Made by a program: the position numbers. A stretch of DNA of 64,000 nucleotides. Origin: a virus (lineage: Duplodnaviria > Heunggongvirae > Uroviricota > Caudoviricetes). The stretch lies in IMG/VR virus record IMGVR_UViG_2703718787_000017; one strand, 5' to 3'. Shown piece by piece: positions 18,001 to 21,000 of this stretch (positions are counted from its first letter, which is position 1; every line of letters begins with the position of its first letter).

Positions 18001-21000
18001 CACGACTTCGCATCACAATTATTGCTGAACCACCAGATTCCCGCCGTCGCGACCTCGATAACATCCTGAAAGGTTTACTCGACTCTCTTATCTACGCCGG
18101 ATTTGCGGAAGACGACGAGCAATTCGATGACATTCGCGTAATTCGCGGCGTGAAAGTGCCTGGCGGTAGAGTGGGGATAAAAATCACCGAACTGGAGAAC
18201 ATTTGATGAATGCTAAAATTCAAACGATACCTGAATTACTGATCTGCACCAGGGGAAATCAGACAGAAGTCGCCAGAATACTGAACTGCAATCGTGCCAC
18301 AGTCAGAAAATACATTGATGATAAAGATGCGAAAAAGCACGCCGTCGTCAATGGCGTCCTTATGGTTCATCGCGGATGGGGTAAAGATACTGATGCGTGA
18401 TATCCGGCAGGTTCTTGAGCGCTGGGGTGCATGGGCGGCAAATAACTATGAGGATGTTACATGGTCGCCCATTGCTGCAGGATTTAAGGGACTGATCCCC
18501 GAAAAAGTAAAATCACGTCCACAGTGTTGTGACGATGACGCGATGATTATATGCGGGTGTATGGCTCGCCTTAACAGGAACAACAGCGATCTGCATGACT
18601 TGCTGGTTGATTATTACGTGTTGGGGGAGACATTCATGGCGCTGGCACGTAAGCATGGATGCTCTGATGGAACTATCGGTAAAAAATTACAGAAAGCGGA
18701 GGGTGTGGTTGAAGGGATGTTAATGTTACTTGGTGTCAGACTGGAAATGGACCGATATGTGCAACGCCTCTGACAGGAGGCGTTTGCCGTTCACTATGTG
18801 AAGTGTGTCAATTTGTGAGCGTTATGCTGTTTACTTTATAGTTGCGGAACGTAAGAGTTATCCTCCTGCTAAGCGCAGAGATGCAACAATGAACAGGGGG
18901 GCAAAATGGACATTGAAGATTTTCTGGAGGCAGAAGACAATGATCTGTCTCTGTGGAATGATGATATTTTAAGCATTGACTGGTTCGTTATTCTTAGAGA
19001 GCTGTTGAAATATCAGAGAAGACTAAATATCACCCATTCAGAATTAGTTTTGCTGGCTAATTTGGTTTCATTTCACCAGAATGTGGATTCGCAAATATTA
19101 CCGTCAATATCTCTTTTGGCTACCAGAATGCGCGCCTCCCGAGCCATTATACAAGGACGCCTTCAGGAACTGGAGGGGAAAGGAATGTTGCAGAAGATAA
19201 GTTACGCTCAAATCGGTCATGATGATGATTTGCGGAACGTCTATGACATCAAGCCATTAATTCGTAAGTTAATTGGGGTGCAGAAAACCGAGAATGATAA
19301 AAAGCACACTTGCCCCGTCTGTGGAAAAGTAGGTTCCTCTGATGAAGAAATTGAGAAATTTTTTGGATTCAGAAAAAGTGGGGATTATAAATGGCCGCAA
19401 AGCTGGTGCCGTTCATGCAGAAGCACGAAACAACGCCGACTGAATACATCGCTAATTGGTAAAAAAAGGCCCCGCAAATCCCCACCAGAGGTGGTGTGAA
19501 GTGTCGCGGAATCCTTGATTCCGTTCCCGATTGAATGGGGTGCTAAAAAGTATTTTACGTACGTAAAAATCTGCATATCATGATAAGAGTGGTTGCATTG
19601 CCACGCAGCCGACCCCGTCGATGAGCGGGGTTTTTTTGTACCCAGAATCCTCTGAGCTATACGGAAAGTACACAGAAAGGAAGGTGCGACCACAATTAAT
19701 AACAAAATCTTAAAAATCGCACATGGCACTATTAGTTTTCTAAATATTGTGTATTTTTTGTATTGCAGGATGACCCTGTAACGAAGTTTGCGTAACAGCA
19801 TTTTGCTCTACGAGTTTGCCAGCCCCCCCAGTGGCTGGCTTTTTTATGTCCGTAACATCCTGTGTATCAATAAATGTTGTTGTCTACGTACGTCAAGTAG
19901 TCGCATGAGATCTGACCAGATATGTTAAGGTTGCAGCTCTCTTTGAATATAATTATCATTTTCATTACGTTATTGTTACGTTTATCCGGTGCGCCGTAAA
20001 ACGCCGTCCTTCAGGGGGTGGAGGATGTCAAGAATATAGTTATCGTATGGTGCTCAAGGAGTATTGTGTAATATGAAAATAATTATTTTTAGAGTGCTAA
20101 CTTTTTTCTTTGTTATCTTTTCAGTTAATGTGGTTGCGAAGGAATTTACCTTAGACTTCTCGACTGCAAAGACGTATGTAGATTCGCTGAATGTCATTCG
20201 CTCTGCAATAGGTACTCCATTACAGACTATTTCATCAGGAGGTACGTCTTTACTGATGATTGATAGTGGCACAGGGGATAATTTGTTTGCAGTTGATGTC
20301 AGAGGGATAGATCCAGAGGAAGGGCGGTTTAATAATCTACGGCTTATTGTTGAACGAAATAATTTATATGTGACAGGATTTGTTAACAGGACAAATAATG
20401 TTTTTTATCGCTTTGCTGATTTTTCACATGTTACCTTTCCAGGTACAACAGCGGTTACATTGTCTGGTGACAGTAGCTATACCACGTTACAGCGTGTTGC
20501 AGGGATCAGTCGTACGGGGATGCAGATAAATCGCCATTCGTTGACTACTTCTTATCTGGATTTAATGTCGCATAGTGGAACCTCACTGACGCAGTCTGTG
20601 GCAAGAGCGATGTTACGGTTTGTTACTGTGACAGCTGAAGCTTTACGTTTTCGGCAAATACAGAGGGGATTTCGTACAACACTGGATGATCTCAGTGGGC
20701 GTTCTTATGTAATGACTGCTGAAGATGTTGATCTTACATTGAACTGGGGAAGGTTGAGTAGTGTCCTGCCTGACTATCATGGACAAGACTCTGTTCGTGT
20801 AGGAAGAATTTCTTTTGGAAGCATTAATGCAATTCTGGGAAGCGTGGCATTAATACTGAATTGTCATCATCATGCATCGCGAGTTGCCAGAATGGCATCT
20901 GATGAGTTTCCTTCTATGTGTCCGGCAGATGGAAGAGTCCGTGGGATTACGCACAATAAAATATTGTGGGATTCATCCACTCTGGGGGCAATTCTGATGC

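What the first reader, a model, noticed from the sequence alone, without database searches (positions are those of the whole stretch)
18813..19846. Intact wHTH/zinc-ribbon gene sitting between Q and the stx1 operon, upstream of two tandem terminators
In lambdoid phages the interval after Q normally holds only pR', the qut site and tR'. Here a 197-aa ORF with a strong RBS (18906-19499) occupies that interval in an AT-rich segment and is followed by two intrinsic terminators (19612-19637, 19818-19846) before the Fur-box/stx1 region. If pR' is where predicted, this gene would be transcribed constitutively from pR' in the lysogen without Q. The protein looks like a DNA-binding regulator (wHTH plus CPVC-x28-CRSC ribbon, basic tail), so it could modulate late or stx expression or act on the host.
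Basis: partly seen in the sequence, partly recalled or inferred. Interest (0 to 1): 0.55.

Follow-up and report, generated by a model that had tools for sequence, protein, structure and literature searches.

The report
Accessory DNA-binding gene between Q and pR'
A real but rare add-on gene for a probable DNA-binding protein lies just before, not after, the Shiga-toxin phage's late promoter, so it is most likely an early-operon passenger and not a gene switched on constitutively from that promoter.

Summary
The 197-aa ORF (18906-19499), its G-rich ribosome-binding site, the CPVC-x28-CRSC motif, the basic tail and both hairpin/T-run terminators are all present. The window is a Shigella phage 75/02 / 7888-type Stx1 phage, where this gene has been annotated "hypothetical protein ORF1" for years.

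The transcriptional reading does not hold. The late promoter pR' was mapped by dRNA-seq in near-identical Sakai Stx phages. Here it is TTTACG-16-TATCAT at 19554-19581, with its start site at 19588, downstream of the ORF. The "two tandem terminators" are the two hairpins of the 258-nt pR' leader, the published StxS sRNA (19588-19845); the second is tR'.

The ORF rides on a 781-bp cassette (18761-19541) that replaces 42 bp at the 3' end of Q. The cassette is found in about 3% of E. coli genomes carrying this pR' block. It is always directly after Q, under purifying selection (dN/dS 0.18-0.35), and occasionally frameshifted.

The protein is a DnaD-N-terminal-type winged helix plus a four-cysteine zinc ribbon. 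Distant relatives sit upstream of fimbrial operons and on small ColE1 plasmids, some beside 11-bp repeat arrays. The most likely role is an N-dependent delayed-early, sequence-specific DNA-binding accessory protein with an unknown target.

The parts
18393..18773 (+). Antiterminator Q gene, 126 aa. It is the H-19B/933W type and is 18 aa shorter at the C-terminus than H-19B Q.
   Evidence: Pfam PF06530, E 5e-52, covering 1-118 of 118 profile positions. 90% nt identity to H-19B Q up to 18760. Annotated as Q in KF766125.
18761..19541 (.). 781-bp cassette that replaces 42 bp of H-19B-type sequence. It supplies the last three Q codons and stop, a hairpin, a 131-bp spacer, ORF1 and a 42-bp tail.
   Evidence: Pairwise BLAST of the window against H-19B: homology stops at 18760 and resumes at 19542. 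The same breakpoint is seen in hundreds of Stx phage records.
18759..18780 (+). Conserved hairpin straddling the Q stop codon; a candidate intrinsic terminator between Q and ORF1. The U-tract is weak here (UUUGCCGUU).
   Evidence: -19.1 kcal/mol, z -3.2. Compensatory changes in L006 and L007. The L007 version has a UUUUUUGUU tail and scores as a terminator.
18813..18842 (+). It is not conserved and is probably not pR'.
   Evidence: 9/12 match at chance frequency. Not detected in L006 or L007. Flanking identity of 75-90% compares with 71-75% at third codon positions.
18895..18900 (+). G-run Shine-Dalgarno of ORF1. Its length varies from G4 to G6 among loci.
   Evidence: Sequence; alignment.
18906..19499 (+). 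ORF1, 197 aa: acidic N-terminus, DnaD-N-type winged helix (about residues 26-130), four-cysteine zinc ribbon (134-172), basic tail.
   Evidence: dN/dS 0.18-0.35.
19554..19581 (+). Late promoter pR' (-35 TTTACG, 16-nt spacer, -10 TATCAT).
   Evidence: VT1-Sakai annotation. dRNA-seq start site from PMC7547250 transferred. 98-100% conserved in all ORF1 loci.
19588..19845 (+). pR' leader, equal to the StxS long form (258 nt). The RNase E site GU/AUU falls at about 19760-19764, and the stable short StxS is about 19762/19770-19845.
   Evidence: PMC7547250. Both paper coordinates differ from NC_002695.2 by the same 135 nt, and the window gives the same 258-nt span.
19611..19637 (+). First hairpin plus T-run, at +24 to +50 of the pR' transcript. 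It must be leaky in Sakai, where full-length StxS is made. It is the only terminator before the tRNA genes in prophage L007.
   Evidence: Compensatory changes and the L007 context. Accumulation of the 258-nt form in an rne-ts strain.
19818..19846 (+). tR', the Q-sensitive terminator and StxS 3' end.
20073..21299 (+). stx1A (20073-21020) and stx1B (21030-21299).

Best explanation
ORF1 is a genuine, selectively maintained accessory gene. It is carried on a 781-bp cassette lodged at the junction between the Q gene and the late promoter in a small minority of lambdoid prophages with the H-19B/933W-type Q-pR' module.

Shown:
- The cassette ends 12 bp upstream of the pR' -35 hexamer.
- ORF1 therefore lies upstream of the late transcription start (19588).
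- Both hairpin terminators belong to the pR' leader, which is the StxS sRNA.

Inferred:
- ORF1 is the last gene of the rightward early operon.
- It is reached by N-modified RNA polymerase that reads through the conserved hairpin straddling the Q stop codon.
- It is therefore made as a delayed-early protein after induction, together with or just after Q, and not constitutively from pR' in the lysogen.
- The protein is an oligomerising DnaD-N-type winged helix joined to a four-cysteine zinc ribbon and a basic tail.
- It most likely binds specific DNA sites as a regulator-like or origin/iteron-binding-like accessory factor. The target is unknown.
- The gene is dispensable for phage growth and for Stx1 production.
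For: Position and transcription:
- The window is 99.8% identical to Shigella phage 75/02.
- Homology to H-19B stops at 18760 and resumes at 19542.
- The Sakai pR' start site and tR' 3' end (PMC7547250) both map with a uniform 135-nt offset onto NC_002695.2. This gives window positions 19588 and 19845, 258 nt apart.
- The pR' block is 98-100% identical in eight loci whose ORF1 copies are only 80-88% identical.
- The hairpin straddling the Q stop codon is kept by compensatory changes.
- An N/Nun-family arginine-rich protein occupies the N position.

Real gene:
- dN/dS is 0.18-0.35.
- ORF1 lies directly after a PF06530 Q in every intact prophage context examined, whether stx1 genes, tRNA genes or an esterase gene follow pR'.

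Dispensable:
- 19 E. coli genomes carry ORF1, against 645 that match at least the pR' block; 5 of 294 phage records carry it.
- Frameshifted or truncated copies exist.
- Phage 75/02 is inducible and transducing (PMC5447701).

Protein:
- Pfam DnaD_N, E 1.4e-9.
- Profile against PDB: 2vn2, E 2.7e-17.
- AlphaFold2 model with pLDDT 81.
- Two-domain relatives lie directly upstream of chaperone-usher fimbrial operons.
- Others lie on small ColE1 plasmids, some with 11-bp repeat arrays nearby.
Against: - There are no transcript data for this phage. pR' is placed by homology, although at near-identity.
- A non-consensus or factor-dependent promoter in the 131-bp spacer cannot be excluded.
- The U-tract after the Q hairpin is weak in this window, so it may be a stabiliser or processing element and not a terminator.
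- In DnaD itself the N-terminal domain mediates oligomerisation and protein contacts, not DNA binding.
- The contexts suggesting regulation come from relatives only 26-41% identical.
- No repeated candidate operator was found in the cassette beyond chance.
Confidence: 0.65

Rival explanations
1. pR' lies at about 18813-18842, ORF1 is the first gene of the late transcript, it is transcribed constitutively in lysogens, and it is stopped by two tandem terminators.
For: A 9/12 sigma-70 consensus match at 18813-18842. In lambda, pR' directly follows Q (established knowledge).
Against: - The mapped pR' start site corresponds to 19588.
- The Q here is the H-19B type (90% nt identity). Its cognate promoter block is retained at 98-100% identity downstream of ORF1.
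- The upstream match occurs at chance frequency and is lost in L006 and L007.
Confidence: 0.04
2. ORF1 is a classical moron with its own, non-consensus promoter in the 131-bp spacer. It is expressed in the lysogen independently of N and Q and acts on the host or on incoming elements. This could hold in addition to read-through from pR.
For: - Presence/absence polymorphism between otherwise colinear phages.
- Slightly lower GC than the flanks.
- A hairpin isolates it from Q.
- Some short blocks in 18781-18841 are conserved.
- The cassette persists in a prophage remnant.
Against: - No conserved -35/-10 pair.
- Spacer identity is close to the neutral third-position level, and its 3' half is less conserved than that.
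- No terminator of its own lies between the stop codon and pR'.
Confidence: 0.2
3. ORF1 is replication-related and not a transcription factor. It would be a stand-alone initiator or DnaD-like N-domain that binds an origin, or host DnaA or helicase-loading proteins. It might modulate the phage's own replication or exclude competitors.
For: - The best sequence and fold matches are DnaD N-terminal domains.
- PHROG matches to the N-terminal parts of helicase-loader and replication-initiator families.
- Plasmid-borne relatives beside iteron-like 11-bp arrays.
- Weak RepC and RP-C similarity in P0018.
Against: - It lacks the DnaD C-terminal domain.
- The phage has its own DnaD-like loader and DnaC-like gene, with no detectable similarity to ORF1.
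- The plasmids carrying relatives have ColE1-type RNAI replicons and so need no Rep protein.
- Other relatives flank fimbrial operons.
Confidence: 0.2
4. ORF1 is a decaying, functionless remnant that hitch-hikes by recombination between the conserved Q and pR' flanks.
For: It is rare. Several copies are frameshifted or truncated. The flanks are highly conserved and could mediate exchange.
Against: dN/dS is 0.18-0.35 across copies with dS up to 0.6, the 197-codon frame is kept in most lineages, and the cysteines and motifs are invariant.
Confidence: 0.06

Closest known systems
DnaD N-terminal domain (Pfam PF21984; B. subtilis DnaD-NTD 2v79/8ojj, G. kaustophilus 2vn2)
   Different: There is no DnaD C-terminal (DNA-binding) domain. 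A four-cysteine zinc ribbon and a basic tail take its place. ORF1 keeps an S-R-x-x-I-Q recognition-helix pattern typical of DNA-binding winged helices. It is encoded beside Q, not in a replication module.
pR'-StxS-tR' late leader of Stx phages (Sy et al. 2020, PMC7547250) and the H-19B/933W Q module
   Same: Window 19545-19846 is this module. It has the same promoter hexamers, the same 258-nt span, the same RNase E motif and the same tR'.
   Different: Nothing differs in the module itself. What differs here is the 781-bp cassette immediately upstream and a Q protein 18 aa shorter.
Phage morons and nin-region accessory genes of lambdoid phages
   Same: Optional gene inserted between conserved neighbours, with slightly lower GC, dispensable, in the rightward early region.
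   Different: No demonstrable promoter or terminator of its own. It occupies the unusual slot between Q and pR'.
Archaeal TFE / eukaryotic TFIIE-alpha (extended winged helix plus zinc ribbon)
   Different: This is an analogy of architecture only. There is no sequence relationship, and the zinc ribbon was not matched.
Uncharacterised 'helix-turn-helix domain-containing proteins' of small ColE1-type enterobacterial plasmids (P0018 group)
   Same: Same two-domain architecture, 41% identity, and the shared motif CPxC...FGFR...QSWC(K/R)xCR.
   Different: Plasmid-borne, some beside 11-bp repeat arrays. Function also unknown.

Membership tests
DnaD_N domain family (PF21984) | HMM score at or above the curated gathering threshold | tested here: met
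   38.5 bits against a cut-off of 27, residues 32-132. All 16 close homologues carry the precomputed PF21984 hit.
DnaD_N domain family (PF21984) | DnaD-NTD fold (winged helix with extra N-terminal elements and a C-terminal helix) | tested here: met
DnaD/DnaB-type replication initiation proteins (full-length) | C-terminal DnaD/DnaB_2 DNA-binding domain | tested here: not met
   No Pfam match beyond residue 132 except sub-threshold zinc-ribbon hits. PHROG loader and initiator matches cover only the N-terminal parts of those profiles.
DnaD/DnaB-type replication initiation proteins (full-length) | Tetramerisation or scaffold formation and DnaA interaction | not testable with these tools
   Needs biochemistry.
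Genes of the pR' late leader (between pR' and tR') | Located downstream of the pR' transcription start | tested here: not met
   The start site transfers to 19588, and the ORF ends at 19499.
Moron (autonomous promoter-gene-terminator insert) | Presence/absence between otherwise colinear phages | tested here: met
   781 bp here against 42 bp in H-19B. 19 E. coli genomes carry ORF1, against 645 that match at least the pR' block.
Moron (autonomous promoter-gene-terminator insert) | Own promoter | tested here: inconclusive
   The only consensus-like site is at chance level and is not conserved. Non-consensus promoters cannot be excluded.
Moron (autonomous promoter-gene-terminator insert) | Own terminator downstream of the gene | tested here: not met
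   No terminator lies between 19499 and pR'. The next hairpin lies inside the pR' transcript.
Lar restriction-alleviation zinc ribbon (PF14354) | HMM score at or above the gathering threshold | tested here: not met
   13.5 bits against 28.6, E 0.09.
StxS sRNA / pR'-tR' module | pR' hexamers, 258-nt span to tR', RNase E GU/AUU motif at about +173 | tested here: met
   The window sequence GTATT lies at 19760-19764.
Known anti-phage defence proteins (PADLOC) | Match to any defence-system model | tested here: not met
   No family at E <= 0.01.

The most novel reading that the evidence does not exclude
The ORF1 protein is a phage-encoded DNA-binding factor whose position is not accidental, given that the cassette ends 12 bp from the pR' -35 hexamer. 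In one version it binds at or near pR' or Pstx1 and tunes StxS sRNA, late-gene or Stx1 output. In another it mimics the N-domain of replication initiators to interfere with competing phages or plasmids. Either way it would define a new winged-helix plus 'FGFR-QSWCRxCR' zinc-ribbon family. The same family would also control fimbrial operons and bind 11-bp repeat arrays on small plasmids.
Probability: 0.1. Interest if true: 0.6.

Novelty: new member of a known kind. Interest (0 to 1): 0.3.

Why it matters
The finding mainly corrects an annotation. In these Shigella and E. coli Stx1 phages the late promoter, the StxS sRNA and tR' are intact and in their usual relationship to stx1. The extra gene therefore does not place a new product under constitutive late-promoter control.

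The gene is still an uncharacterised, conserved accessory protein at an unusual slot between Q and pR' in clinically relevant Stx1 phages of Shigella sonnei, S. flexneri and E. coli. Its wider family has no studied member; that family includes relatives next to fimbrial operons and on small ColE1 plasmids. A simple deletion and ChIP experiment could show whether it affects Stx1, StxS or phage competition.

Tried and rejected
- Rfam on 18300-20100 at E <= 1 gave no match, not even for StxS.
- The first AlphaFold2 run, on 13 close homologues, gave pLDDT 49 and was discarded. It was redone with 88 diverse sequences.
- The afdb50 fold library was unavailable.
- BFVD gave only generic HTH phage proteins.
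- NCBIfam and PADLOC gave nothing for ORF1.
- The search for related loci on genome contigs with alignment A3 failed for lack of a conserved stretch. Alignment A4 gave one useful locus.
- Profile comparison with the phage's own DnaD-like loader showed no similarity. I therefore rejected ORF1 as a paralogue of it.
- The repeat search in 18740-19900 gave only short two-copy matches at about chance frequency, including TGTGAAGTGT on both sides of the ORF. No operator could be proposed.
- The plasmid iteron core GCAAACAG shows no clustering in the window.
- Literature searches for phage 7888, POCJ13 and 75/02 found nothing about ORF1 itself.
- I considered a beta-clamp-binding motif (DLSLW). I dropped it because the tryptophan is part of the conserved domain in distant relatives.
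Full report
WHAT THE WINDOW IS

Region 18700-20100 is 99.8% identical to Shigella phage 75/02 Stx and 99.7% identical to S. sonnei phage 7888. It is 92.6% identical to S. flexneri phage POCJ13. In those records the ORF is already annotated as 'hypothetical protein' or 'ORF1' between Q and stxA. Most other Stx phages match only from query position 843 onward, which is window 19542.

CHECK OF THE OBSERVATION

- The ORF at 18906-19499 (197 aa) is present.
- A G6 run lies 5 nt upstream of the ATG.
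- The CPVC-x28-CRSC spacing and the basic tail are present and conserved in homologues.
- Hairpin plus T-run terminators lie at 19611-19637 and 19818-19846.
- The GC dip is modest: 36-45% against 46-50% in Q.
- The promoter implied by the finding's start coordinate (TTGTGA-18-TATAGT, 18813-18842) is a 9/12 match. The region gives 4 such matches and shuffles give 4.2.

WHERE THE LATE PROMOTER REALLY IS

A pairwise comparison with H-19B shows 90% identity through Q up to 18760. A block unique to each phage follows: 781 bp here and 42 bp in H-19B. Identity of 96% then resumes from 19542. The Q here is therefore the H-19B/933W type (Pfam PF06530). It is 126 aa instead of 144 aa, and the Pfam domain (118 positions) is fully covered.

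The VT1-Sakai record places the putative late promoter at the very end of Q, followed by two 'terminators for the pR' transcript'. Sy et al. 2020 (PMC7547250) mapped the pR' primary start by dRNA-seq and the tR' 3' end by Term-seq in the Sakai Stx1 and Stx2a phages. The two points are 258 nt apart.

In NC_002695.2, two positions are exactly 258 nt apart: the A located 7 nt after the TATCAT -10, and the end of the tR' T-run. Both differ from the published coordinates by the same 135 nt. The same calculation in the window gives a start at 19588 and a 3' end at 19845. The RNase E motif GU/AUU reported at +173 falls at 19760-19764.

ORF1 ends at 19499, so it lies upstream of pR'. The 'two tandem terminators' are the two hairpins of the pR' leader, which is the StxS sRNA. 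The second is tR'. The first sits at +24 to +50 and must be leaky in Sakai, because the 258-nt form accumulates when RNase E is inactivated.

COMPARATIVE SUPPORT

I aligned eight ORF1-bearing loci whose ORF1 copies are 80-100% identical.
- The block 19545-19595 (pR' and the start region) is 98-100% identical in all of them.
- The spacer upstream of ORF1 is 75-90% identical in its 5' half and 58-78% in its 3' half. Third codon positions are 71-81% identical.
- The hairpin straddling the Q stop codon (18759-18780, -19 kcal/mol) is maintained by compensatory changes. In L007 it carries a proper U-tract and scores as a terminator.
- The first pR'-proximal hairpin also shows compensatory changes. 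In L007 it is the only terminator before the tRNA genes.

DISTRIBUTION AND SELECTION

- Full-length cassette matches occur in 5 of 294 matching phage records.
- They occur in 19 E. coli genomes, against 645 that match at least the pR' block.
- In every intact prophage context examined, the gene directly follows a PF06530 Q with a gap of about 131 nt. Upstream it may have RusA-NinH or NinG-NinH. Downstream of pR' it may have stx1, tRNA genes or only the esterase gene. One copy is in an IS-truncated remnant.
- Pairwise dN/dS is 0.18-0.35 with dS up to 0.6, so this is a real protein-coding gene.
- Frameshifted copies (L009, L023; tail frameshift in L017) and a ribbon-truncated allele (P0014) exist in otherwise similar prophages.
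- Phage 75/02 is inducible and transducing (PMC5447701), so the shorter Q and the cassette are compatible with a working phage.
- H-19B and Sakai Sp15 lack the gene. It is therefore dispensable.

THE PROTEIN

- Pfam gives DnaD_N above threshold and sub-threshold HTH_36.
- PHROGs places it in an unknown-function family. Weaker matches hit the N-terminal parts of helicase-loader and initiator families.
- An exhaustive profile search found 359 relatives at E <= 1e-3. A few have both domains (P0018, P0021, P0027, P0031). Many have only the winged helix. Many have only the zinc ribbon, whether alone, in tandem, or at the C-terminus of ResIII helicases that resemble type III/IV restriction enzymes.
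- With an 88-sequence alignment, AlphaFold2 gives pLDDT 81.
- There is no DnaD C-terminal domain.
- There is no similarity to the phage's own DnaD-like loader at 9755-10837.
- There is no hit in the defence-system or NCBIfam models.

CONTEXT OF DISTANT RELATIVES

- P0027 and P0031 lie immediately upstream of chaperone-usher fimbrial operons, on the same strand, with a divergent NlpC/P60 gene. That position is typical of an operon regulator.
- P0018-type proteins are among the few genes on 2.7-15 kb plasmids. RNAI, which marks a ColE1-type replicon that needs no Rep protein, was detected on four of the five screened (L047, L048, L049, L051). The 2.7-kb Providencia plasmid L050 gave no RNAI match.
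- In two plasmid lineages, arrays with 11-bp periodicity and the core GCAAACAGA lie about 430 bp downstream of the gene. A third locus has other 11-bp arrays.
- These contexts favour a sequence-specific DNA-binding role, but they come from proteins only 26-41% identical to ORF1.
- No comparable array or operator could be found near ORF1.

MOST LIKELY MECHANISM

- Shown: the gene sits between Q and pR' on an optional cassette, and pR'/StxS/tR' are intact downstream.
- Inferred from the lambdoid paradigm, and from an N/Nun-family protein at the N position: ORF1 is transcribed from pR by antiterminated polymerase that reads through the post-Q hairpin. It is therefore a delayed-early product, not a constitutive pR' product.
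- Inferred from fold and context: the protein binds DNA.
- Unknown: the target and the benefit to the phage.
- A weak promoter of its own in the spacer remains possible.

NOVELTY AND INTEREST

The late-leader part of the finding is already explained by published work on StxS and pR'. The gene itself is an uncharacterised member of the DnaD_N winged-helix superfamily, joined to a zinc-ribbon module that matched no Pfam, NCBIfam or named PHROG family. It sits in a slot that is normally empty.

That makes it a modestly interesting accessory gene, not a surprising regulatory arrangement. Interest is 0.3. The more exciting reading, a regulator of pR', StxS or Stx1 or an exclusion factor, is not excluded but has no direct support (probability about 0.1).

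Noticed in passing
L042 994-1563; L045 2005-2526; L046 784-1305: Distant two-domain relatives of ORF1 (P0027, P0031) lie directly upstream, on the same strand, of chaperone-usher fimbrial operons. A divergent NlpC/P60 gene sits on the other side. The synteny is conserved and suggests an unstudied fimbrial regulator family.
   Followed up: partly
L049 775-1353 and 1788-1915; L051 2523-3113 and 3529-3645; L032 7112-7218: P0018-type relatives are among the few CDS on small plasmids of Enterobacterales. RNAI (ColE1-type) was detected on L047, L048, L049 and L051 but not on L050. Arrays with 11-bp periodicity (core GCAAACAGA in two lineages) lie a few hundred bp downstream of the gene. L050 has no such array.
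   Followed up: partly
window 19588-19845: The StxS sRNA / pR' leader, experimentally characterised in Sakai, has no Rfam match even at E <= 1.
   Followed up: yes
window 18759-18780: A strong hairpin straddles the Q stop codon and is maintained by compensatory substitutions across cassette variants. It carries a canonical U-tract in L007 but a weak one here. H-19B-type phages lack it.
   Followed up: partly
window 18895-18900 and homologous positions in L006-L012: The poly-G tract that forms ORF1's ribosome-binding site varies from G4 to G6 between loci. In one allele (P0011) the shorter run puts an upstream ATG in frame.
   Followed up: no
window 18797-18806 and 19495-19504: An exact 10-nt direct repeat, TGTGAAGTGT, lies on both sides of ORF1. 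About 0.6 such repeats are expected by chance in this stretch, and the repeat does not coincide with the cassette boundaries.
   Followed up: partly
L007 4840-5054: In prophage L007 the StxS body and tR' are absent. The first pR'-proximal hairpin is followed within about 10 nt by tRNA-Arg genes, so it is presumably the only Q-sensitive terminator there.
   Followed up: partly
proteins P0025, P0032, P0048, P0057, P0067: The zinc-ribbon module (CPxC...FGFR...QSWCRxCR) occurs as stand-alone 50-66 aa proteins, as a tandem pair, and at the C-terminus of ResIII helicases that resemble type III/IV restriction enzymes. It has no Pfam family of its own.
   Followed up: partly
window 12855-14557 (- strand): The early-right region carries minus-strand inserts: a DUF4145 protein (12855-13601) and a HigB-like toxin (14126-14557). 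A probable antitoxin ORF lies just downstream of the toxin gene on that strand (window 13703-14126).
   Followed up: no
window 28107-28159: A 12-bp tandem repeat, AAATCGATCATG x 4.4, in the late region. Not examined.
   Followed up: no
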